The notes beneath the pieces are model-generated. The model was not told the origin of the DNA. It did no database searches and saw only the letters and a list, made by a program, of their open reading frames with translations. DNA of 64,000 nt from positions 17,144-81,143 of the IMG/VR virus record IMGVR_UViG_3300048623_000062. One strand, 5' to 3'. The first letter of the stretch is position 1. Every line of letters begins with the position of its first letter. The position numbers and the translations under genes are program-made. Shown here in pieces: positions 33,351-63,577 of the stretch. Source of the stretch: a virus. Taxonomy: Duplodnaviria > Caudoviricetes.

Positions 33351-34682
33351 ATGCGTTTCGATGACGATACTGACACCACCCCCGAAGAAGAGATCGATGA
33401 AATCGGCCCGGAAGTGACCGACGAGATCGAAGGCGACCCCGACGACAACGAGATCCCGGACCCGGAAGTCGTTCTAGTTCCAGACCCGGAGGCCGACTCG
33501 CCCGAGGAGCCGGTGCCGACCAAGGGGAATGGCCGCTCCAAGAAGCGGGCTTCGAAGCCGAAGCCGGGATCGGATGACCTCACGCTGGTGCCGACACGCT
33601 CGTTCGCCAAGCAGATTCCGGTCGCCGCCGAAGTCGTGGAGCCGCCGACTCCGGCCGAGGAGCGTGAGGTCCGGTACGAGCGCTTGAGTTCGATCCGGAT
33701 CGAATACAAGCACTGGCAGAACCCGCGCCAGCGCACGGGGCTCGAGGACGCCAAGATCAAGGCTCTTGCCGAGAGCATCTCGGCCCGCAGCACTACCGAT
33801 GAGACCGGCGTTGTCACGGCCGGCCTCAAGACGCCGCTGGACGTCGTCGCCATCAAGTCCAACGGCGGCACCGTCCTCCTGGCGATCGACGGTCAGCGCC
33901 GGACGCGCGCGATGGAGTACCTGGGTCTACCGAGCGACACGCTCGTCCCGGTGTTCTACTACAAGCCGGAACCCATCGACTGGACCCCAGCGGTTGCCGC
34001 CGAGCTCCTGCTCGAGGTCGTCGAGATGGCCTCCACGCGCGAGGGGCTGTCGAGCTTCGAGCTCGCGGACGTCGCCCAGCGACTCCGCTCGTCCAAGGAC
34101 GAGGACACCGGCAAGGAATACACGATGGCGAAGATCGCCAAGGCGATCGACCGCTCCGAGTCGTGGTGCTCCAAGATCCTGGGCGCGATGAAGACCGCCA
34201 CGCCTGCGCTCTTGCTGCGGTGGGAGAAAGGCGAGGTCACGGACGAGCAATTTAAGGATTTGGCCGCGACCAAGGAGCCAAGCAAACAGAAGTCCGCCCT
34301 CAACGCCGTCATCGAGGCGCGGACGACCGGCGACACGCGCGGCGCGCGCACCCTCGCCAAAGAAGCGAAGGTCATCGCAAAGCGCGACGAGCCAAAGTCG
34401 AAGCCAAAGAAGCCGGCCAAGGGCGAGCAGACGTCGATCGATACGCCTCCTCCCATGAGGCCAACCCCGGGTGCGATCCTCGACGACCTGATCCGCGTGG
34501 CCGACGATCGCCCGCCGACCCACGACTACGTGCGCGGCATCATGGACGGCTTGCGATATGCGCGCGGCGGCATCGACCCGAGGAACTTCGGTAAGCCGTG
34601 GGGGGTATATCTGGGGCTCGTCATGGGCGAGTCGCCCACGAAGGCGAAGCCGGCCAAGGGCGCCAAGAAGCCCAAGAAGTAG
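33351..34682 (+). CDS. ParB/KorB-family DNA-binding protein
   Basis: QNPR, IDGQRRTRA and HTH-like MAKIAKAIDRSESWCSKIL; AAGGAG SD (ORF track start 33213). Confidence 0.8.
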   Translation: MRFDDDTDTTPEEEIDEIGPEVTDEIEGDPDDNEIPDPEVVLVPDPEADSPEEPVPTKGNGRSKKRASKPKPGSDDLTLVPTRSFAKQIPVAAEVVEPPTPAEEREVRYERLSSIRIEYKHWQNPRQRTGLEDAKIKALAESISARSTTDETGVVTAGLKTPLDVVAIKSNGGTVLLAIDGQRRTRAMEYLGLPSDTLVPVFYYKPEPIDWTPAVAAELLLEVVEMASTREGLSSFELADVAQRLRSSKDEDTGKEYTMAKIAKAIDRSESWCSKILGAMKTATPALLLRWEKGEVTDEQFKDLAATKEPSKQKSALNAVIEARTTGDTRGARTLAKEAKVIAKRDEPKSKPKKPAKGEQTSIDTPPPMRPTPGAILDDLIRVADDRPPTHDYVRGIMDGLRYARGGIDPRNFGKPWGVYLGLVMGESPTKAKPAKGAKKPKK

Positions 34683-34884
34683 ACGCTTCTCAGTGCGCTC
34701 GGACTGAGACTAGAACTGGCACTGACTCTTTGAGCGTAGCTCGGTACGATTTGAGCCCGAGACGGAAAATTCGCCAGTACTCCTCGGGCTCGCCGAGACG
34801 GGCAATGCAGATCCGAGACGGCCTTCTGCTGCCGTGACAGCCACTCCTGGTTGACCTGACCATTGTTCCGCGCGACCATGCAGC

Positions 34885-38718: not shown

Positions 38719-39519
38719 ATGTCATACCCTCAGCCCTCAGCGAACGGCTACTGCGTCGGCGGATCCCAGTTCTTCCGTCTACGCACGCTGCTGTCGTCTC
38801 CCGGTGACATCTACGAGTCCGACCAGGGCTGTCTGGCCCTGTCGCTCGGTCCGGACTCGGACTTAGCGAACATCAACGTCAACTACTTCGATGACCAGGT
38901 CACGAACTTCGTGCAGCAGACGACGATCGGCCCGCAGCGGTCGTTCGTTGGTCGAGTCGACGCGAACCCCAGCGAGACCTACTCGCCATCGAAGGTCCCC
39001 GGTCGGATCTTCTTCTGGTCGGCCGATATCTACGATCCGAATTTCCGCCCCAGGACGTTCGATTTCACCAACGACACGATCAACTTTCAGACGCCGGTTC
39101 TCGACGTGGTCCAGTATTTCCAGGCGCCCCCTACGCTGGTTCCGCCGCGCATCGACAAGCAGTTCGTATATCAGAACTACAACGCGTTCGGCGGCGTGTG
39201 CTGGATCGTGGTCCCGTTCTACAGCCGGAAGTTCGCGTACATCCAGTTCACGAATCGCACCCCGGCGTCGGGAATGACGTTCCAGATCATCGGCGTGAAT
39301 TTCGCGATTTCGCCGAACCCGAACCCGATGAACCCGCTTGCCGGTCCGCCGTATCACCAAGAACGACAAATCTTGGCGCCAACGCTCATCCCGTTCACGA
39401 CCTCGTCGAACACCATCGTCAACGCGACCACCGTTGGGATGTTCGACGCGCTCGTGATCGGCATCCAGGGGGCGGTTGGGCCGGCCCCGCTCCGCATCGT
39501 CACCTCGGACACGCTGTGA
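38719..39519 (+). CDS. beta-rich virion-like protein
   Basis: Composition and context. Confidence 0.65.
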   Translation: MSYPQPSANGYCVGGSQFFRLRTLLSSPGDIYESDQGCLALSLGPDSDLANINVNYFDDQVTNFVQQTTIGPQRSFVGRVDANPSETYSPSKVPGRIFFWSADIYDPNFRPRTFDFTNDTINFQTPVLDVVQYFQAPPTLVPPRIDKQFVYQNYNAFGGVCWIVVPFYSRKFAYIQFTNRTPASGMTFQIIGVNFAISPNPNPMNPLAGPPYHQERQILAPTLIPFTTSSNTIVNATTVGMFDALVIGIQGAVGPAPLRIVTSDTL

Positions 39520-39526
39520 GGACCAC

Positions 39527-39880
39527 ATGCCAGCTGCACTGACCCTTCCGGAGGCCGCCGGGGCCGCGTTCGACAACCTTCAACTCAAGTGGGTATCGGA
39601 CAATCTCAAGAGCAGCATGACGCTGTTTTCGAACGGCATCTCTGGTGTCGGGTCCGATCAGCAGGCGGACTCTCACCCGATCCGGAACTGGTTCGCGCTG
39701 ATCGCGAACCTCGCCAATCAGATGCCGTCGTTTGCGGTCGCCATCGGCGATCTGACGCTGTCGGCCGAGTACATCTACCGGATTTGCTGGGTCACCCAGC
39801 AGTTGCTCGACCAGTCCCTCATCACGTCCGGGCAAGCGGCGGCGATCCTCATCGAGTACAACGCGGCGTTCACTATCTAG
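39527..39880 (+). CDS. helical hypothetical protein
   Basis: GAGG SD. Confidence 0.65.
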   Translation: MPAALTLPEAAGAAFDNLQLKWVSDNLKSSMTLFSNGISGVGSDQQADSHPIRNWFALIANLANQMPSFAVAIGDLTLSAEYIYRICWVTQQLLDQSLITSGQAAAILIEYNAAFTI

Positions 39881-39885
39881 GCTTG

Positions 39886-39932
39886 CTCGGCAGCCTTTGG
39901 CCGAGACCCAACTCGCCAGCCTTGGCCGAGAC
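39886..39932 (+). CRISPR. non-canonical repeat unit(s): CTCGGC-loop-GCCGAG-AC plus duplicated 3' arm
   Basis: Same stem as 55555 and 56973 units. Confidence 0.45.
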
Positions 39933-39955
39933 CCACGCTGCGGCGAGATATGATG

Positions 39956-52981: not shown

Positions 52982-53581
52982 ATGGCGCGACTCCGTCACC
53001 GGCGGTACCGAAGGAACCCAAGTAGCGGCAGCGCGCCCAAGCGCAACCCGCCGATGATGACGGACCTGGTGGAGTTCATCGGTCCGGGCTTCGCGAGCTT
53101 CGCCGTGACGCGCTTCGCGACACGCCTGGCTGCGCAGCAGTTGGGAGCGCGCAAGCCGTCCTGGGGAAAGCATGCGGGTGCGCTGGTGTCGGCTGGCGCG
53201 TTTCTGAGCGCGTGGTTCCTGGCGCATCGGTGGAAGTGGCTGGAGCGCTGGCACACGCCGATCGTCGTCGGCTCCGCGATCGCGGCGATTCAGTCGATCG
53301 TGCAACTCTACATCCCCCGCATTGGGTGGATGCTCGACGCAGTCCCCGAGGAGATCACGGCGCCGCCGCAGACGGCTGGCGAGCTCGCGGCGACGCAACT
53401 CTCGAAGCTCGGCCTGCGGGCCGTGGACGAGGACCCCAACGAGTACACGTACAATGACGAGTACGACCCCGGGCTCTACTCGAAGCCACAGCAGCCTCCG
53501 GGCGTACAGGCGGACGTGTCCGATCTCGCAATGGACGACGCGGTCGGCCAGAGCGGCAATCTCGGGGTGTTCCAAAACTAG
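52982..53581 (+). CDS. RRNP-motif membrane protein, related in architecture to the core protein
   Basis: RHRRYRRNP...KRNP, hydrophobic helices, acidic tail. Confidence 0.7.
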   Translation: MARLRHRRYRRNPSSGSAPKRNPPMMTDLVEFIGPGFASFAVTRFATRLAAQQLGARKPSWGKHAGALVSAGAFLSAWFLAHRWKWLERWHTPIVVGSAIAAIQSIVQLYIPRIGWMLDAVPEEITAPPQTAGELAATQLSKLGLRAVDEDPNEYTYNDEYDPGLYSKPQQPPGVQADVSDLAMDDAVGQSGNLGVFQN

Positions 53582-53670
53582 CCCGGCGGTCTGCTGGCCG
53601 GGACGACGCAGGGCGCTCGCCTTTGCGTGCGCCCTGCCGACGACGGCTGAGCCGGGACGAGGAGAATCGG

Positions 53671-54025: not shown

Positions 54026-54080
54026 CCAGCGGCTTTTGTCGCTGGACAAGGGGTAGCCAGCGACTTTTCCGTCGCTGGAC
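54026..54080 (+). CRISPR. two tandem stem-loop-AC units (CCAGCG.C-loop-GTCGCTGG-AC)
   Basis: Homologous to the 57239-57264 minus-strand unit. Confidence 0.5.
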
Positions 54081-55552: not shown

Positions 55553-55641
55553 AGCTCGGCCGCTTCTCAGCCGAGACGACTTTGACACCTGGACGCCAGG
55601 CTCCCTATCGGTCCGGACTGGACGACGCGCTTGGCCTGGAC
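55553..55641 (+). CRISPR. unit AGCTCGGC-loop-GCCGAGAC plus further GAC-ended segments
   Basis: Stem shared with 39886 and 56973; TTGACA follows within the putative spacer. Confidence 0.5.
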
Positions 55642-55688
55642 GACGTTGGCAGTTGCACATCGCCTGCCAGTATGGATAGACTCCGCTC

Positions 55689-56148: not shown

Positions 56149-56574
56149 ATGCGGGTACTTGATGCTGTCTGGGAGCTTGGTTCGCGATTCGCGAACCTCA
56201 ACCTATCCTGGTTCCAAGCGCTCCACGCGGTGGTGCACACGCCGGATCCGGACATGAACCCGTTCGTGATCGCGCACGCGCGGCGCGAACTCGGCGACGA
56301 CTGGGCAGGAGCTGTCTACGAGCGCGCCCGCGCTGAGACGTCCGCCGTCCCCGAGGTCTACATCGATGCGGACCCCACCGAGCCTGGCGAGCCGGGGTGG
56401 CCGTCCGTGGAGACGGTGATCCGCAAGCTGTCGGCGATGCGCGACGCGGACCCGGACATCGGTGCGATGCGGGTGATGTTGGACAAGGGCAATGGCCTGG
56501 TCGAGCTCGACCTCATCAAGGCGGTGGCCACCGGCGCACCCGGCGACGACGGCGTCGTCATCATGTTCCGATGA
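56149..56574 (+). CDS. hypothetical protein
   Basis: Start uncertain. Confidence 0.55.
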   Translation: MRVLDAVWELGSRFANLNLSWFQALHAVVHTPDPDMNPFVIAHARRELGDDWAGAVYERARAETSAVPEVYIDADPTEPGEPGWPSVETVIRKLSAMRDADPDIGAMRVMLDKGNGLVELDLIKAVATGAPGDDGVVIMFR

Positions 56575-56939
56575 TGGTGGACTGGGACACCTTTGTCGTG
56601 GGTATGATCGCTTGCGCCATCGTCCTGGGATGCGTGGTTGCGATCTTCGACATCCGGCGCGACCATCAGGCCATGCTGGTCATTGACGCGCGCAGCGGCA
56701 GGGAGATGCACGTCGGCGACACCGTCCGGTACCCGGGCGGTGAGAGCGTGACGCTGCTCGAGGCGAAGCCGGGCCTGCTCAAGGCCATGGCGAAGCTCCG
56801 GATGGTCCACCTCGACTACGCCGATCCGGAGCTCGAGATCGCGCCGCGGTACGTGACGCGCGAGGATTGGGTGCCGCTGCAGGTCAGGTGGACGCACCCG
56901 AGTTACTTCGGAAAGTGGGTCGGGTTCATCCCGAGTTGA
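56571..56939 (+). CDS. TM-anchored small protein
   Basis: N-terminal TM. Confidence 0.65.
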   Translation: MMVDWDTFVVGMIACAIVLGCVVAIFDIRRDHQAMLVIDARSGREMHVGDTVRYPGGESVTLLEAKPGLLKAMAKLRMVHLDYADPELEIAPRYVTREDWVPLQVRWTHPSYFGKWVGFIPS

Positions 56940-56950
56940 CGAGAATCCTC

Positions 56951-57268
56951 GTCTCGGCAATATGGTGCGCCCGTCCCGGCGCGGAAAGCGGCCGAGCTCG
57001 CGTTCTGTTCACGTCCGAGGTCATCGCGCGCAGTGTTCGGTCATCGCTGCAAAGACGCGATGCTGTCGTTGCCGCGCAGCCTGCGACAGGAATCCATCAG
57101 GTCCATCCGTGAAGCGCAGATGGATGCGCCTTGCGATCAACGCTGCAGTCCGTTCGCGAGGCACGTGATCTCTTGGTCCGTTCCGGATCGAGGGCCGCCC
57201 TCAGCGCGAACGGCTACGCTTGCTCCGCTCCGGCTACAGTCCAGCGATCCAGAGTCGCTGGCTACGCT
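56951..57268 (-). CRISPR. non-canonical array A: 8 GAC-ended units with heterogeneous stems
   Basis: Unit ends at 57239, 57176, 57148, 57101, 57040, 57020, 56973 and 56951. Confidence 0.6.
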
Positions 57269-57660
57269 AGGACGCTCGCGAGCACGTGAAAGTCGCTCTC
57301 GCATGCCCAGAACGAGAGAGCGGCCTTCATGTTCGATGCGCCGGCCATGGGGAGGAGGCCGCGACACAGCCCTGCGATGAGCGCGATCGCCTCCGGCGTG
57401 CGCCCGGTCTCGTCGATGGGCATCACGCCAAACGACGTCGACCACGCCGCCTTGCATCTGACGATCTCCACGCAGGATCGTTGCATGGCGTCGAACCCGA
57501 ACCGTGTGGCGACGTAGGCCATGGCGCCAGCGATCGCCGCCGCGGTGTCGTTCGCGTTGAGCATTCCGATCGGAACTCGGGCGATGAAGCCCGGCGACAC
57601 GGAGGTAGCGAGAGAGCGGACGTCGGGGATGTCGTTCTTCCAGTGGTCGATGGCGGTCAT
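57262..57660 (-). CDS. hypothetical protein between arrays A and B
   Basis: AGGAG SD, ATG 57660. Confidence 0.7.
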   Translation of the reverse strand: MTAIDHWKNDIPDVRSLATSVSPGFIARVPIGMLNANDTAAAIAGAMAYVATRFGFDAMQRSCVEIVRCKAAWSTSFGVMPIDETGRTPEAIALIAGLCRGLLPMAGASNMKAALSFWACESDFHVLASVLA

Positions 57661-57711
57661 CACAAACTCCTGTGGTTGCAGATTGCACACGGTGGCGTAC
57701 CTCGTCAAGTC

Positions 57712-57724
57712 TTGCCAGTGGCAA
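57712..57724. promoter_or_regulatory. palindromic operator copy 10, 3 bp upstream of a TTGACG (-35-like) on the minus strand
   Basis: Minus strand reads CTTGCCACTGGCAAG-AC-TTGACG. Confidence 0.8.
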
Positions 57725-57739
57725 GCCGAGCGGATGCAG

Positions 57740-57938
57740 GTCCCAGGCGTATAAGAACCCTGGGGTGTCGTTGCCATCCCGCTGTCCCGATTACGAGAGA
57801 GCCTCGTTCGGGGCCGGGTCCCGATACTCCGAGTAGTCCATCGGGCTGGACTTTCAACACATGGCCCGGCAGGCAAGGCGCCGGGCGGCCGTCACTGGCA
57901 ACCGATCGACTCCCTCGTCCCGACGCTATGATGTCGGG
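57740..57938 (-). CRISPR. non-canonical array B directly downstream of the Cas12m-like gene
   Basis: Four CCC-stem-GGG-AC units ending at 57917, 57818, 57784 and 57740. Confidence 0.6.
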
Positions 57939-59887
57939 ATATCCGTTGCCAGGTCTCCGCCTTTCTTGCGACGTCGCAGGATCTGCGAGCGGGCCGGCTT
58001 CTTCGCGGTGTCATCCGGCGGCGCCTCGAGTTGCGCCTTGGCGCGGCCGAGTATGTTTATACAGGCGTTGGGGTCCTGGTCCCAGGATGCCAAGCATGCC
58101 GAACACGTCACGATGCGCGGGTCGCCCGGCCGACGATCGAACTCGTTGAGTGCGCCGCATGGAGCGCACGTCCGAGTGATATTGTCGGACTCGACGGTGA
58201 TGGCGTACTTCGACTCGAAGGCGTTTACCACGGTCTGCCGAAGCAACGATCCGGCGACGAGGCGCTGGGCGTACTTGATCTGCGTGATCTCGACGTCCTC
58301 ACTCTCCGGTGCTGGCGATCGCTGCATCTGGGATAGGTTGGTATCCTCGACGACGACGTAGCGGTACCGCCGGGCCAACTCGCATCCGAGCAAGCGATAG
58401 AGTTCACGCCGGTGGTTGAGTGCGCGACGCCGCATGCCGCTCTCGTAGCGCTCGAGGTGCTCGTCGCGGTAGCGCCACTTCTCGAGCACGGCGTGGGCTT
58501 CCTCGTCACCCTTGAACCGGCTCGATCGCCAGCGGAAGGTGAACTCCCGGATCTTCGCGAGCGACTTCCAGGAGTGCGCGTACGTCGTCCCCCGCACGAA
58601 CCAGTTGGGCACGTGAGAGACCACGCCACGCTCGCTGGTGTCGATGTAGAGGCACATACGCTTGAAGCTCTCGCCGAGGACAGAGTCCCAGTTGGACAGG
58701 TGCCCGTCAGGCGTGCTCTGCGTCGTCGTCTGGTCAGGCGCAAATCCGATGACCGCCTGCTGTACTTTCGCGTAGTGCTCATCACGGATCGCCCGCGCCA
58801 TCGGCACGAACACCGCCTTCATGGCTTCGAAGTCCCGATCCCGGAACCCCTGCAGGGACTCGCTCTTGGCGATCGGGTCGATGACGCCCTCCATGGGGAG
58901 CACGATCTCTTTCTGATAGCCGTCATCACCAACGGCATATCCGGCCCGCAGGCTGCCGTCGGGCCGGCGGCTGAACCCGAGGTTGATGGCGACCATGCCG
59001 GACTCGGGCACGGCGCGCCGGCGCCAGTCCTCCGGCGTGTCGACGAGGATGTGGACCTCCCAGGTCATCATGCGGCAGTCGTGGGGGCGCGAGATGACGG
59101 TGGCCGCCTTGACCACGCTTCCCTCGGGTAGCGGCCTGTGCATGATCATCGGGAACTTCGCCCAGATGGGCTTTTTCTTCTCGTCCGAGCCGATGCGCAG
59201 CCAGAGCATCGTGCGTGACAGGCGGCGGCGATCGCCGCGCTTGGTGCTCAGCGTGTCGTACGCTCGCGGGTCGACCGGGTCGATGCGGATCTGGGTGTCG
59301 GTGCCCCAGAGGTCCTTGAGCTCGATGCCGCCCTGGATCTGCACCCCGATCCGGCCGCCGCGGGTGGCGTGCACGAACTCCGGCATCCCCTTCCCCTTGC
59401 GGGCGGCGTCCGCCGCTGCCTCCTGCAGGAGGTAGGTGCCCCAGTACACGCCGCACTTCGCCCGCTCCGCCTTAATGCGATCCCGGGCGTGCAGGTCGAG
59501 CGCGTTGAGTTGATCCTTCACGGCGCTGTCGGAGATGAGGACCTTCTTGGCCTCGTTCAGCCGGGCACGGATCTCCTTGATCCTCGCCCCGAGGTCACGG
59601 ATTGCCGTCCGGACCTCGGGGGTCTCGTTGCGCCGGCGAGCCTGCTTGCGGCCAGCCTGCATGTCCTCTCGCGCGGCGTCACGCGCGGCCACCGCGGCCT
59701 CGAGCTCGAGGCGGATCGCGTCGACATCCGGGTGATGGGACAGGATCCGGCTCGCTTCCTTGCGGCGATCGCGCTCGATCTCGATGAGCATGTTGCGGTA
59801 GCGGTGCGCGAGCTTGAGTTGGGTCTCGATGGATTCGCCGCCCTGGATGGGCGGCCGAAGGCCGTAGACGAAGATTCGGGGCGGCAT
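57926..59887 (-). CDS. cas12m: Cas12m (type V-M)-like RNA-guided effector, RuvC-I Asp replaced by Asn
   Basis: QLKLAHRYRN, long coiled coil, YWGTY, GRIGVQ, MHRPLP, VAINLGF, VVVEDT, TRTCAPCG...CSAC...WDQDPNACINI. Confidence 0.75.
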   Translation of the reverse strand: MPPRIFVYGLRPPIQGGESIETQLKLAHRYRNMLIEIERDRRKEASRILSHHPDVDAIRLELEAAVAARDAAREDMQAGRKQARRRNETPEVRTAIRDLGARIKEIRARLNEAKKVLISDSAVKDQLNALDLHARDRIKAERAKCGVYWGTYLLQEAAADAARKGKGMPEFVHATRGGRIGVQIQGGIELKDLWGTDTQIRIDPVDPRAYDTLSTKRGDRRRLSRTMLWLRIGSDEKKKPIWAKFPMIMHRPLPEGSVVKAATVISRPHDCRMMTWEVHILVDTPEDWRRRAVPESGMVAINLGFSRRPDGSLRAGYAVGDDGYQKEIVLPMEGVIDPIAKSESLQGFRDRDFEAMKAVFVPMARAIRDEHYAKVQQAVIGFAPDQTTTQSTPDGHLSNWDSVLGESFKRMCLYIDTSERGVVSHVPNWFVRGTTYAHSWKSLAKIREFTFRWRSSRFKGDEEAHAVLEKWRYRDEHLERYESGMRRRALNHRRELYRLLGCELARRYRYVVVEDTNLSQMQRSPAPESEDVEITQIKYAQRLVAGSLLRQTVVNAFESKYAITVESDNITRTCAPCGALNEFDRRPGDPRIVTCSACLASWDQDPNACINILGRAKAQLEAPPDDTAKKPARSQILRRRKKGGDLATDIPTS

Positions 59888-61072: not shown

Positions 61073-61190
61073 GTCCCAGCAGTAGACCGCTGGGCACGTA
61101 TTGAGTCGAGGTTGACGCAGGTCCACATTCGCGACGCTGTCCACGGCGCGCGAGGCGCGTCCCGGGATGAGTGGCGCACCACTCCACGGG
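61073..61190 (-). CRISPR. intergenic cluster C of stem-loop-AC units
   Basis: CCCG-loop-CGGG-AC, two GTGGAC ends, CCCAGC-loop-GCTGGG-AC. Confidence 0.45.
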
Positions 61191-62018: not shown

Positions 62019-63425
62019 TCAGGGCGTTGGGCATCCGGATCCCACGCAGACGGGGACCGAAGCGAGGTTCAGGCCTAGACGCGGCGCGACGATCGGCTGG
62101 GGCGAGCCGTCCAGGGCTGTGACGGCCGTCAGATTGCCCACCACGACGTTTCCATCGACCTCGAGACCTACGACAGGGGTGATGGTTCCGCGCGCGTAGA
62201 CGGCAGTACGGCCGGCCCCGGGGACCGTCCAGGTCATGTGGTTCCGTAGCACCTTCAGGCGTGAACTGCTCTCGCTGTACACCCCGAAGCTGGGCGTGGA
62301 CTGTGTCATGGCATTGTCCGACACGATCGCGTCGTCACAGGTGCCGGTGCCGTGCGGCACGATGCGCACCATCGGCCCCGGAGAACCCTCGCGCACGAGC
62401 TTGTTGTCGGTCACGCGCAGAACGGACAGGACCGTCGAGCCGTCCGGCGCAGTGCTCGTCGCGCTGCAGGTGTTGCTGACCTCGATGACGCCCTGGCCGT
62501 CCTTGCCCGGGACCAGCGGTGCCCTCGAGCGCATCCAGATGGTCTCGTCGTGGATGGACACGCCGGACGAGCGGACGACCGAGATCCCGCGGCCGATGCC
62601 GATGTGCTGGTTGTTGTAGATCTCGACGTTGGCGGCCGTGGTGATCGCGATGTCGTAGTCGCCCTGCGTGCTGGGGCCGCTGATGAACTTGTTCTCGGTG
62701 ATGGTGACGTCCATGACCTCGAGGCCCGGCGCCCAGCCGGTCACCTCCATGTCGAAGTGCTGGTCCGCCGTTGCGCCCTTGCAAGTGTTGCGGCGGAACA
62801 TGAGACCGCGGACGCCGCGCTGCACGCCGACGCACGAGCGAGCTCCATCAAGGATATTGTCCTCGATGACCACGTCCATCAGGAGCGTGCTGAGGCCGTC
62901 GCCCAGCAGGCGGATGCAGTCGCCGCGGCGGGTGACGCCGCGCGGGTGGATGCACTCGCTGTTGCGGATGGTGAGGCCGACGATCGGCGTGCAGGTGCCC
63001 ATGGCCTGCGAGCAGATGCCGTTTGTGCCCCACAGGTGGGTCTGCTCATCGGTGTTCCAGGCGTTGGTGCTGGTGAGCGTCACGCCATCGAACACGATGT
63101 TCTTGGCGCCGGCATTGATGGCCCACAGGGTGGTCGCCTGCGCGCCCTGGTCACCCACGAGGTCCACGAACGATCCCCCCTTCACGCCCTGCACGGTGAG
63201 GCCGTTATGGTGCGTGCTCACAGCTGCAAACCGGTCCCAGATGCCAGGACCGGAGCCGCGGCGGTGCACGCGAAGGTGGCCGCGCGGGATGCATAGCGTC
63301 CCGCGCGGCGGTGTCGCGTCGATCGCCGCCTGGAGTTGCGCGGTGTCGTCGAGGTCGTCGGTCGGATCGGCGCCGAAGTCGACAGGGTTGATGCAGGTCG
63401 TGGCGAGCGCCAGTGCGAACAGCAT
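62019..63425 (-). CDS. right-handed beta-helix (pectate-lyase-like/GH) protein with signal-like N-terminus
   Basis: NPVDFGADP...DDTAQLQAAID...LCIPRG; repeated I.I.N/D rungs. Confidence 0.8.
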   Translation of the reverse strand: MLFALALATTCINPVDFGADPTDDLDDTAQLQAAIDATPPRGTLCIPRGHLRVHRRGSGPGIWDRFAAVSTHHNGLTVQGVKGGSFVDLVGDQGAQATTLWAINAGAKNIVFDGVTLTSTNAWNTDEQTHLWGTNGICSQAMGTCTPIVGLTIRNSECIHPRGVTRRGDCIRLLGDGLSTLLMDVVIEDNILDGARSCVGVQRGVRGLMFRRNTCKGATADQHFDMEVTGWAPGLEVMDVTITENKFISGPSTQGDYDIAITTAANVEIYNNQHIGIGRGISVVRSSGVSIHDETIWMRSRAPLVPGKDGQGVIEVSNTCSATSTAPDGSTVLSVLRVTDNKLVREGSPGPMVRIVPHGTGTCDDAIVSDNAMTQSTPSFGVYSESSSRLKVLRNHMTWTVPGAGRTAVYARGTITPVVGLEVDGNVVVGNLTAVTALDGSPQPIVAPRLGLNLASVPVCVGSGCPTP

Positions 63426-63577
63426 TCCGTCAGTATCGGATGCGACGACAGCCGTGCCCAGCAAAATGTAGGGTCGCTGGGAACCAATTGATGCAATCGC
63501 CTAAGTCTCGCTGCTGAGGCCAGCGAGCAAACCTTGGATAGGACCTGGTCTCGCAGGATGGGATGCAGGGTTGCGAG

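What the first reader, a model, noticed from the sequence alone, without database searches (positions are those of the whole stretch)
56951..57210. One 5' arm, two 3' arms: possible alternative-folding guide switch
Seen: a full hairpin-AC is followed after 12-20 nt by a second copy of only the 3' arm plus AC. Cases: GAACGGAC x2 (ends 57176, 57148), GCGATGAC x2 (57040, 57020), GCCGGGAC/GCCGAGAC (56973, 56951) and TGGCCGAGAC x2 (39907, 39932). Inference: the single 5' arm can pair with either copy, giving mutually exclusive guides or cut sites. Alternatively this records Cas1-independent array growth by partial duplication.
Basis: partly seen in the sequence, partly recalled or inferred. Interest (0 to 1): 0.72.

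Follow-up and report, generated by a model that had tools for sequence, protein, structure and literature searches.

The report
Doubled repeat ends in phage Cas12m array
The flagged stretch is a decayed CRISPR-like guide array of a virus-encoded, DNA-binding Cas12m protein, in which the last 8-10 bases of several repeats have been copied a second time a few bases downstream; the copies are real and non-random, they most likely arise by repeated small duplications, and whether they act as an RNA switch is untested.

Summary
Observation confirmed. All motifs sit where stated, on the minus strand (39900-39932 on the plus strand).

The 320-nt non-coding stretch 56940-57261 lies downstream of a 653-aa Cas12m homologue (57926-59887, minus strand). 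Related viruses carry canonical type V-M arrays at that position.

It holds five diverged repeats (R1-R5); two or three more lie upstream of an embedded 132-aa gene. Several keep the family's two-helix pseudoknot and its invariant terminal AC. Each has its own stem sequence.

The "second 3' arms" are 8-10-nt copies of the pseudoknot 3' strand plus AC.

Among the eight best covariance-model hits, four carry an exact second copy within 60 nt (background 0.0075 each).

Close relatives carry 1, 2 or 3 copies at the same units, some as plain 9-, 14- or 25-nt tandem duplications. No Cas1 is present.

Free-RNA folding favours the distal copy by 2-12 kcal/mol, so alternative pairing is feasible. Only 6-10 nt separate a distal copy from the next repeat, so a second guide is unlikely.

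Best reading: recurrent partial duplications in a Cas1-less degenerate array. A masking or switch role is possible but unproven.

The parts
57926..59887 (-). cas12m (653 aa), type V-M effector homologue, Asn at RuvC-I (N-D-D type)
   Evidence: phmmer against PDB: Cas12m 23vw_A E 7e-55, Cas12m2 8hhl 7e-20, 8pm4 9e-17. 190 homologues, most with PF07282. RuvC-I motif from alignment A2.
57917..57939 (-). 7-bp hairpin followed by AC, spanning the cas12m stop codon
   Evidence: read
57863..57898 (-). R0, degenerate repeat (ends CC, not AC)
   Evidence: covariance model R1, 8.8 bits, E 0.089 in the 1-kb search
57818..57858 (-). Ra, pseudoknot-type repeat
   Evidence: 16.1 bits, E 0.0018; conserved in L001, L003 and L002
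57784..57791 (-). second copy of Ra's terminal 8-mer (gap 26 nt); it has a 5' arm and an inner hairpin of its own
   Evidence: kept in L001, degenerate in G001
57740..57777 (-). Rb, pseudoknot-type repeat, no second copy
   Evidence: 16.5 bits, E 0.0015
57262..57660 (-). 132-aa gene of unknown family embedded between the repeats
   Evidence: GC3 periodicity; no Pfam or PHROG hit; conserved in L001 and L002
57239..57268 (-). R1, short repeat (conserved 9-nt head, 7-bp hairpin, GGAC); its head overlaps the stop of the 132-aa gene
   Evidence: two compensatory stem changes in L002; model score only 4.1 bits
57176..57220 (-). R2, same 9-nt head, nested hairpin, ends in AC (atypical; not found by the model)
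57148..57155 (-). second copy of R2's 3' arm plus AC, inside the 38-nt spacer S2 (57138-57175). With 3 more bases it pairs 9 bp with the 5' arm, against 6 bp for the proximal copy.
   Evidence: (I3, D9); weakened in G001, deleted in L001
57101..57137 (-). R3, 37-nt repeat with the family topology (helix A 5 bp, helix B 5 bp, AC). Present only in this genome.
   Evidence: read; absent from L001 and G001; the model scores it only 0.3 bits
57040..57075 (-). R4, best canonical-like repeat
   Evidence: 19.7 bits, E 2.6e-4
57020..57027 (-). second copy of R4's 3' arm plus AC, 12 nt into spacer S4
   Evidence: (D7). G001 has two such copies (14-nt tandem duplication) and its proximal copy has lost the AC.
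56973..57009 (-). R5, pseudoknot-type repeat; its proximal 3' arm pairs with one G-U
   Evidence: 11.7 bits, E 0.019
56951..56958 (-). second copy of R5's 3' arm plus AC (perfect complement of the 5' arm), 14 nt downstream
   Evidence: It is invariant in L001 and G001 while the proximal copy varies.
56938..56953 (-). terminal 6-bp hairpin over the stop codon of the convergent plus-strand gene 56574-56939
   Evidence: read
39873..39932 (+). solitary Cas12m-type repeat over the stop of gene 39476-39880, plus a 25-nt tandem duplication that gives the second 8-mer
   Evidence: 17.3 bits; TRF. G001 has a single copy with a compensatory flip of one stem pair.
53569..53658 (+). solitary repeat (53569-53604) over a stop codon, a 46-nt insert with its own hairpin, then a second 8-mer (53651-53658) that abuts the next gene's ribosome-binding site
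   Evidence: 23.2 bits. L001 has 2 copies with a 12-nt insert; G001 has 3 copies.
54026..54080 (+). two hairpin-AC units sharing the same terminal 8-mer (54040-54047 and 54073-54080)
   Evidence: G001 has an insert of about 330 nt between them.

Best explanation
The region is the distal part of a degenerate, Cas1-less type V-M (Cas12m) guide array carried by an 81-kb virus and read on the minus strand. Each unit is a diverged repeat. Several repeats keep the family pseudoknot: helix A, with the 5' strand of helix B in its loop, then a linker, the 3' strand of helix B and AC. Each repeat has its own stem sequence.

The extra '3' arms' are short direct copies (8-10 nt) of helix B's 3' strand plus AC. 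In the array they lie 12-26 nt after the repeat, so they mostly start at or beyond the roughly 17-nt guide that Cas12m2 uses.

I infer that they arise by recurrent small tandem duplications and indels at these hairpin-rich junctions (replication slippage or template switching), not by Cas1-type acquisition. Most would then be young and close to neutral.

In the transcript, each copy offers the single 5' strand a second partner that is thermodynamically better. The canonical handle would then have to form first, co-transcriptionally, or be captured by Cas12m. Otherwise the RNA would settle into a long hairpin that buries the handle and the guide.

Shown here: the effector homology, the repeat architecture, the non-randomness of the doubling, the copy-number variation among relatives and the folding preference. 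Inferred: the mutational mechanism and any effect on crRNA biogenesis.
For: 1. Effector: Cas12m homology. In the relatives fetched here, most carry canonical arrays that start just downstream of the gene on the same strand, with 36-nt repeats and 35-39-nt spacers.
2. Family repeat structure: supported by covariation. 88.6% of cells are paired (helix B 97.6%), 0 of 500 shuffles reach this, and the terminal AC is invariant. This agrees with the Cas12m2 structure, where C(-22..-17) pairs with G(-8..-3), G(-23) contacts A(-2), and the heteroduplex is 17 bp (PMC10442227).
3. Model hits: in the 1 kb downstream of cas12m, the four best hits of the model built from other viruses are all on the minus strand: R4 E 2.6e-4, Rb 1.5e-3, Ra 1.8e-3, R5 0.019.
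4. Doubling: 4 of the 8 best hits carry an exact second copy, against a background of 0.0075.
5. Duplication origin: a 25-nt tandem duplication at 39886-39935 is absent from G001. G001 has extra 14-nt (R4) and 9-nt (R5) tandem duplications. The 53569 unit has 2, 2 and 3 copies with unrelated inserts of 46 nt, 12 nt, and 8 + 9 nt.
6. Indel hot spot: indels of 6 nt or more between G000 and G001 are about 12-fold enriched at model-hit zones, 7 of 47 in 1.27% of the window, p 2e-6.
7. No Cas1 is detected.
8. Divergence: by my count on A4, A5, distal copies differ from G001 at about 4 of 48 positions. That is the genome-wide level, so no special constraint is needed.
9. Related viral arrays (L010, L007) also hold truncated repeats and 6-35-nt spacers.
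Against: - Apart from the clear tandem cases, the sequence between and after the two copies shows no similarity: R4 has 9 of 9 identical bases, then about 2 of 11. A simple old tandem duplication that decayed neutrally should not leave only the 8-10-mer intact.
- In R2 and R4 the distal copy pairs with more of the 5' arm than the proximal one (9 against 6 bp; 7 against 6 bp). A plain copy of the proximal arm does not predict this.
- R5's distal copy is invariant in three genomes while the proximal copy has three variants. The inner hairpin that goes with the distal fold is kept through changes on both strands.
- The indel enrichment is measured against the whole window, not against non-coding DNA only.
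- R1, R2 and R3 are called by eye; the model does not find them.
- No RNA data exist.
Confidence: 0.5

Rival explanations
1. Functional two-state crRNA. The distal copy is kept by selection because it competes with the proximal 3' strand for the one 5' strand. State A (proximal pairing) gives the Cas12m handle and a free guide. State B (distal pairing plus an inner hairpin) masks both. The balance would be set co-transcriptionally or by the Cas12m level, which gates guide loading or processing.
For: - Distal pairing is predicted with probability 0.84-1.0 and is 2-11.6 kcal/mol better than forced proximal pairing. The most distal copy is also preferred in L001 and G001.
- The distal complementarity is longer in R2 and R4 and perfect in R5.
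- R5's distal copy is invariant, and the inner hairpin is kept with changed sequence in three genomes.
- In G001 the proximal R4 copy has lost the invariant AC while the distal copies keep it.
- The doubling at the 53569 unit persists although the insert between the copies is replaced.
Against: - No covariation linking all three elements could be shown; only three close genomes are available.
- The 79% relative L002 lacks the doubling, and G001 has degraded the Ra and R2 distal copies without compensation.
- Distal copies diverge at about the genome-wide rate.
- The folding ignores the pseudoknot and the protein.
- If the distal copy were read as a handle, the linker would be 26-50 nt, against 7 nt in all 33 family repeats.
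- Only 6-10 nt follow before the next repeat, so there is no room for a second guide.
Confidence: 0.25
2. Insertion scars. The paired 8-10-mers are target-site-like duplications left by a Cas1-independent process that inserts DNA at the repeat/spacer junction. The inserts range from a few bases to whole small genes. The doubled arms would then mark cassette boundaries.
For: - Identical copies flank inserts that differ between genomes 92-95% identical: the 53569 unit has 46 nt, 12 nt, and 8 + 9 nt.
- G001 has an insert of about 330 nt between the two units at 54040 and 54073.
- L002 has about 130 nt containing a called 61-aa ORF between two copies of one 8-mer after the cas12m stop.
- The 132-aa gene sits between repeats.
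Against: - No enzyme candidate was identified.
- Several inserts look like degenerate copies of the motif itself, which points to slippage.
- The other indels in the array have no flanking direct repeats.
- No insert matched foreign DNA.
Confidence: 0.12
3. Each repeat with its second arm is a former two-repeat mini-array whose distal repeat has decayed, as described for regulatory mini-arrays. Only its last 8-10 nt are still recognisable.
For: - Mini-arrays with a degenerate distal repeat and short spacers are widespread, and solitary repeats occur in viruses (PMC10120712).
- L061's last repeat shows the same arm-only copy 11 nt downstream.
Against: - Neutral decay would not spare exactly the terminal 8-10 nt.
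- Copy number changes on a much shorter time scale than repeat decay.
- In type V systems the downstream repeat's 3' end has no known role for the upstream guide.
Confidence: 0.08
4. Not CRISPR-related. The stretch is a stack of GC-rich terminator or stabiliser hairpins between convergent genes, and the repeated 8-mers are chance or composition effects.
For: - The region lies between convergent genes.
- The whole-region fold is not more stable than shuffles (z -1.3 and -0.06).
- Close 8-mer repeats are common in this genome.
- Genome-wide, AC after a generic 6-bp hairpin is enriched only 1.13-fold.
Against: - The model hits are strand-specific and significant in the a-priori 1-kb search.
- The position matches that of the arrays of relatives.
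- Doubling at repeat ends has p of about 2e-7.
- No intrinsic terminator pattern is found in the region.
Confidence: 0.05

Closest known systems
Type V-M CRISPR-Cas12m systems (MmCas12m/Cas12m2, GoCas12m; PMC10442227, PMC11013384)
   Same: - The effector is homologous and has the N-D-D type RuvC described for cleavage-deficient, DNA-binding Cas12m.
- The array sits downstream of the gene.
- The repeats have two interleaved stems and end in AC directly before the guide.
- No tracrRNA-like element is needed.
   Different: - The repeats are not identical; each has its own stem sequence, and some are shortened or nested.
- Spacers are 18-38 nt.
- A protein gene is embedded in the array.
- Further solitary repeats lie at gene ends elsewhere in the virus.
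- The last 8-10 nt of several repeats are present twice.
Regulatory mini-arrays and solitary repeat units (scaRNA, CreA, tracr-L analogues; virus-borne mini-arrays; PMC10120712)
   Same: Degenerate repeat-like elements without an adaptation module, short spacers, a decayed distal repeat, and occurrence in viruses.
   Different: - No target with partial complementarity was found here.
- What remains of the 'distal repeat' is its 3' end, which can pair with the upstream repeat. This has not been described for mini-arrays.
Long degenerate Cas12m arrays in related viral contigs
   Same: The same effector family, truncated repeats and 6-35-nt spacers, which implies array remodelling without regular acquisition.
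   Different: There all repeats share one stem sequence, and truncated copies keep both arms. Arm-only copies are rare: one clear case in 325 repeat ends.
Transcription attenuators and riboswitch expression platforms (mutually exclusive helices)
   Same: One strand has two alternative partners, with a kinetic (proximal) and a thermodynamic (distal) helix.
   Different: No ligand, leader peptide or terminator U-tract is present, there is no Rfam match, and no covariation support is available yet.

Membership tests
Type V-M CRISPR-Cas (Cas12m) | Effector homologous to Cas12m over its full length | tested here: met
   23vw_A Cas12m E 7e-55 (residues 8-367). Cas12m2, Cas12m4a and 8pm4 give E 1e-17 to 1e-20 over the C-terminal RuvC/TNB part. 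PF07282 is weak in the query but common in homologues.
Type V-M CRISPR-Cas (Cas12m) | Non-canonical or canonical RuvC triad as described (D-E-D, H-D-D or N-D-D) | tested here: met
   Asn at RuvC-I in this clade, Asp in the distant clade, and the RuvC-III Asp retained. The triad types are listed in PMC11013384.
Type V-M CRISPR-Cas (Cas12m) | Repeat of about 36 nt forming stem plus pseudoknot and ending in AC before the guide | tested here: met
   Family structure from 33 repeats. R4, Rb, Ra and R5 match the model with E 2.6e-4 to 0.019. R3 fits by eye. R1 and R2 do not fit the pseudoknot form.
Type V-M CRISPR-Cas (Cas12m) | crRNAs made and loaded; PAM-dependent DNA binding | not testable with these tools
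No protospacers were found.
Canonical CRISPR array | Near-identical direct repeats at regular spacing | tested here: not met
   No repeat family longer than 14 nt in 56900-57300. No tandem or periodic array is reported there. The k-mer array finder is negative for the window's relatives L001-L005 but positive for most others.
Canonical CRISPR array | Adaptation module (Cas1) available in cis | tested here: not met
   PF01867 is absent from the 81-kb record, while the controls are positive.
Regulatory mini-array / solitary repeat unit | Repeat-like element plus spacer with partial match to a promoter or gene it regulates | tested here: inconclusive
   Only 11-15-nt identities were found, to a low-complexity Gly/Tyr/Ser repeat gene. 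No consistent PAM was seen.
Alternative-helix RNA switch | Two mutually exclusive helices, both energetically accessible | tested here: met
   Forced proximal against distal folds differ by 2-11.6 kcal/mol in favour of the distal fold; relatives give the same picture. The pseudoknot and the protein are not modelled.
Alternative-helix RNA switch | Covariation that preserves both helices across relatives | tested here: inconclusive
   Only three or four related genomes exist. One hint comes from R5's inner hairpin. There are counter-examples at Ra and R2 in G001 and in L002.
Intrinsic terminator cluster | GC-rich stem followed by a U tract | tested here: not met
   No terminator-like site in 56940-57261 on either strand.

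The most novel reading that the evidence does not exclude
A natural self-masking guide RNA. In this virus each Cas12m repeat carries a built-in competitor for its pseudoknot. The crRNA would become functional only if Cas12m captures the kinetically first (proximal) fold; otherwise it collapses into an inert hairpin. The same 8-10-nt junction motif would also be the site of a Cas1-independent process that duplicates repeat ends and inserts short DNA, and even small genes.
Probability: 0.2. Interest if true: 0.8.

Novelty: new variant of a known kind. Interest (0 to 1): 0.55.

Why it matters
Cas12m is a compact, binding-only effector that is now used for base editing and gene circuits. How its arrays are kept and remodelled without an adaptation module, especially in viruses, is not known.

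This locus shows an array whose repeats have diverged in sequence while keeping their fold. Their ends are repeatedly duplicated over short evolutionary times.

If the duplicated ends prove functional, they would be a natural example of conditional guide RNAs, a design so far known only from engineering. If they are mutational by-products, they still document how Cas1-less arrays change, and they show why identity-based CRISPR finders miss such arrays.

Tried and rejected
- **Rfam and tRNA scans of the window:** nothing found.
- **Whole-region folding:** not more stable than shuffles on either strand.
- **Coding potential of plus-strand ORFs across the region:** rejected by the GC3 profile.
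- **Self-targets of nine candidate guides in the 81-kb genome:** only 11-12-nt chance-level hits. The exceptions are S1 against a low-complexity repeat gene, and the genome-wide palindrome inside the spacer after Rb.
- **Phage database search with the whole region:** one weak 39-nt hit to a Microbacterium phage tail gene, E 0.3.
- **Exact scans of viral contigs:**
  - The S4 16-mer hit 61 contigs, mostly one family with a 17-nt match. That family is E. coli phage PHB10-like, so it is an implausible target for a 65% GC virus. The number of independent hits is what chance predicts.
  - The S5 16-mer gave six unrelated hits.
  - The S2 17-mer was found only in the relative itself.
- **Metagenome scan for more close relatives:** returned only the known 86-kb contig.
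- **Atlas look-up of the 132-aa protein:** no usable hit.
- **Generic '6-bp hairpin followed by AC' count:** too unspecific, 9055 hairpins and AC enriched only 1.13-fold.
- **Hand-made pseudoknot pattern:** also too permissive for a clean survey of other loci.

Full report
**What is at the coordinates**

- One 8-mer lies at 57183-57176 and again at 57155-57148.
- A 9-mer lies at 57047-57039 and again at 57027-57019.
- A pair with one mismatch ends at 56973 and 56951.
- A plus-strand pair ends at 39907 and 39932, inside a 25-nt tandem duplication.

Each pair is preceded by a single complementary 5' arm. The stretch 56940-57261 shows no codon-position GC signal. It lies between a plus-strand gene that ends at 56939 and a minus-strand 132-aa gene at 57262-57660.

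**Context**

On the minus strand, upstream of the 132-aa gene, lies a 653-aa ORF (57926-59887). It matches solved Cas12m structures: E 7e-55 to 23vw_A, and about 1e-17 to 1e-20 to Cas12m2, Cas12m4a and 8pm4. In this clade its RuvC-I residue is Asn, one of the triad types described for cleavage-deficient Cas12m (PMC11013384).

The window is part of an 81-kb virus record, and no Cas1 is detected in it.

I collected 54 viral and 5 genomic loci with relatives of the protein. Most carry a canonical array that starts just downstream of the gene on the same strand, with 36-nt repeats and 35-39-nt spacers.

Thirty-three of these repeats align without gaps and end in an invariant AC. They support two interleaved helices with strong covariation: 88.6% of cells are paired (helix B 97.6%), and 0 of 500 shuffles reach this. 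This is the pseudoknot seen in the Cas12m2 structure. There the six bases before the terminal AC pair with bases -22 to -17, and a 17-bp guide-target duplex is optimal (PMC10442227).

**The array in this virus**

I built a covariance model only from the repeats of other viruses. In the 1 kb downstream of cas12m its four best hits are all on the minus strand: R4 57040-57075 (E 2.6e-4), Rb 57740-57777 (1.5e-3), Ra 57818-57858 (1.8e-3) and R5 56973-57009 (0.019). A degenerate R0 lies at 57863-57898.

By eye, R3 (57101-57137) has the same topology. R1 (57239-57268) and R2 (57176-57220) share a 9-nt head followed by a simple or nested hairpin and AC.

Every unit has a different stem sequence, which is why identity-based repeat finders see nothing. 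Relatives show compensatory stem changes:
- R1 in L002;
- the 39873 unit in G001.

The 132-aa gene is embedded between Rb and R1 and is conserved in relatives. Further solitary units lie at gene ends elsewhere in the window, always on the coding strand: 53569, 39873, 34676, 55553, 61073 (minus) and 63505 (minus).

**The doubling is real**

Under the proximal reading, the second copies lie inside the spacers. They start 20 nt (R2), 12 nt (R4), 14 nt (R5) and 26 nt (Ra) after the repeat. At the solitary units the gaps are 17 nt (39873) and 46 nt (53569).

Selecting units only by model score, 4 of the 8 best carry an exact second copy of their terminal 8-mer within 60 nt, and R5 carries one with a single mismatch. 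The background for any 8-mer ending in GAC is 0.0075. That gives roughly 2e-7.

In the canonical arrays of other viruses an arm-only copy is rare. I found one clear case, at the last repeat of L061, among 325 repeat ends.

**Origin**

Three close genomes (L001; G001, which is the record behind L003; and L002) show that these junctions change quickly.
- G001 has two distal R4 copies through a 14-nt tandem duplication, and an extra 9-nt duplication after R5.
- The 25-nt duplication at 39886-39935 is absent from G001.
- The 53569 unit has 2, 2 and 3 copies in the window, L001 and G001. The inserts between them are unrelated (46 nt; 12 nt; 8 and 9 nt), while the flanks, including the next gene's ribosome-binding site, are conserved.
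- R3 and parts of its flanking spacers are missing from L001 and G001, with different end points.
- L002, the 79% relative, lacks the doubling altogether.

Indels of 6 nt or more between the two complete genomes are about 12-fold enriched at model-hit zones (7 of 47 in 1.27% of the window, p 2e-6). The caveat is that non-coding DNA tolerates indels better.

By my count on these alignments, distal copies differ from G001 at about 4 of 48 positions. That is similar to the genome-wide divergence.

**Function**

Folding each unit with its downstream 30-50 nt predicts that the single 5' arm pairs almost exclusively with the distal copy. The pair probability is 0.84-1.0, and the distal fold is 2.0 to 11.6 kcal/mol better than a forced proximal helix. 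In relatives the most distal copy is likewise preferred.

Several observations give a switch or masking role some support.
- In R2 and R4 the distal site pairs with more of the 5' arm than the proximal one.
- In R5 the distal copy is a perfect complement and is invariant, while the proximal copy varies. The inner hairpin that accompanies the distal fold is kept through sequence changes.
- In G001 the proximal R4 copy has lost the otherwise invariant AC.

Several observations weigh against it.
- Degraded distal copies in G001 (Ra, R2) are not compensated, and L002 lacks the pattern.
- A distal-copy handle would need a 26-50-nt linker, against 7 nt in all family repeats.
- Only 6-10 nt lie between a distal copy and the next repeat, which leaves no room for a second 17-nt guide.
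- The folding ignores the pseudoknot and the protein.

**Targets**

No credible protospacer was found. A 17-nt match of the most conserved spacer, S4, falls in E. coli PHB10-like prophages and is best read as chance. RNA evidence could not be obtained.

**Verdict**

The doubled ends most likely record ongoing partial duplications. They create a strongly favoured alternative helix, but its use as a switch is unproven. 'Two guides per repeat' is unlikely.

This is a new variant of a known kind, of moderate interest.

Noticed in passing
57711-57725 and at least 14 other sites (e.g. 7267, 18368, 22685, 28270, 33166, 38687, 43150, 48666, 51909): A 15-nt palindrome recurs across the virus genome about every 5 kb. 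One copy lies in the spacer after Rb, directly upstream of a promoter-like TTGACG / 17 nt / CAATCT in front of the 132-aa gene. An earlier scan note links it to a ParB-like gene.
   Followed up: partly
57262-57660 (-): A 132-aa gene with strong codon bias sits inside the repeat array. It is conserved in L001 and L002 and has no Pfam, PHROG or Atlas match. A Cas12m partner, regulator or anti-defence role is conceivable.
   Followed up: partly
53569-53604, 34676-34710 and 34733-34762, 39873-39907, 54026-54080, 55553-55650 (+); 61073-61107, 63505-63541 (-): Cas12m-type repeat-like units lie scattered at gene ends, always on the coding strand and often overlapping the stop codon. They would be transcribed as parts of mRNAs, which suggests guide production from, or processing of, polycistronic transcripts.
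   Followed up: partly
54047-54073 against G001 (L133); L002:6436-6600: Small gene-sized inserts lie between two units that share the same terminal 8-mer: about 330 nt in G001, and about 130 nt containing a called 61-aa ORF in L002 after the cas12m stop. The hairpin units therefore behave as cassette junctions.
   Followed up: partly
G000:C1:8000-8340 (upstream of the window): A minus-strand gene ends in a long Gly/Tyr/Ser/Asp hexamer-repeat tail. Spacer S1 shares 11 nt with it in 12 places, and the S1 versions of L001 and G001 share 15 nt with it.
   Followed up: partly
L010:4412-6787; L007:2700-4050: Related viral Cas12m arrays with about 40 repeats. Their first units are canonical, while later units have truncated repeats and 6-35-nt spacers.
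   Followed up: partly
39886-39907 against G001: A compensatory flip of one base pair in helix B between the two viruses. The window's duplicated second unit still carries the other virus's 5' arm, so a duplication may have bridged the compensatory change.
   Followed up: no
679-1454: Tandem repeats of 123-129 nt (2.4-5.4 copies) inside a long minus-strand ORF, probably a repetitive fibre-like structural protein.
   Followed up: no
62019-63464 (-): A 481-aa protein with weak pectate-lyase / beta-helix and tail-spike hits, probably a depolymerase-like receptor-binding protein.
   Followed up: no
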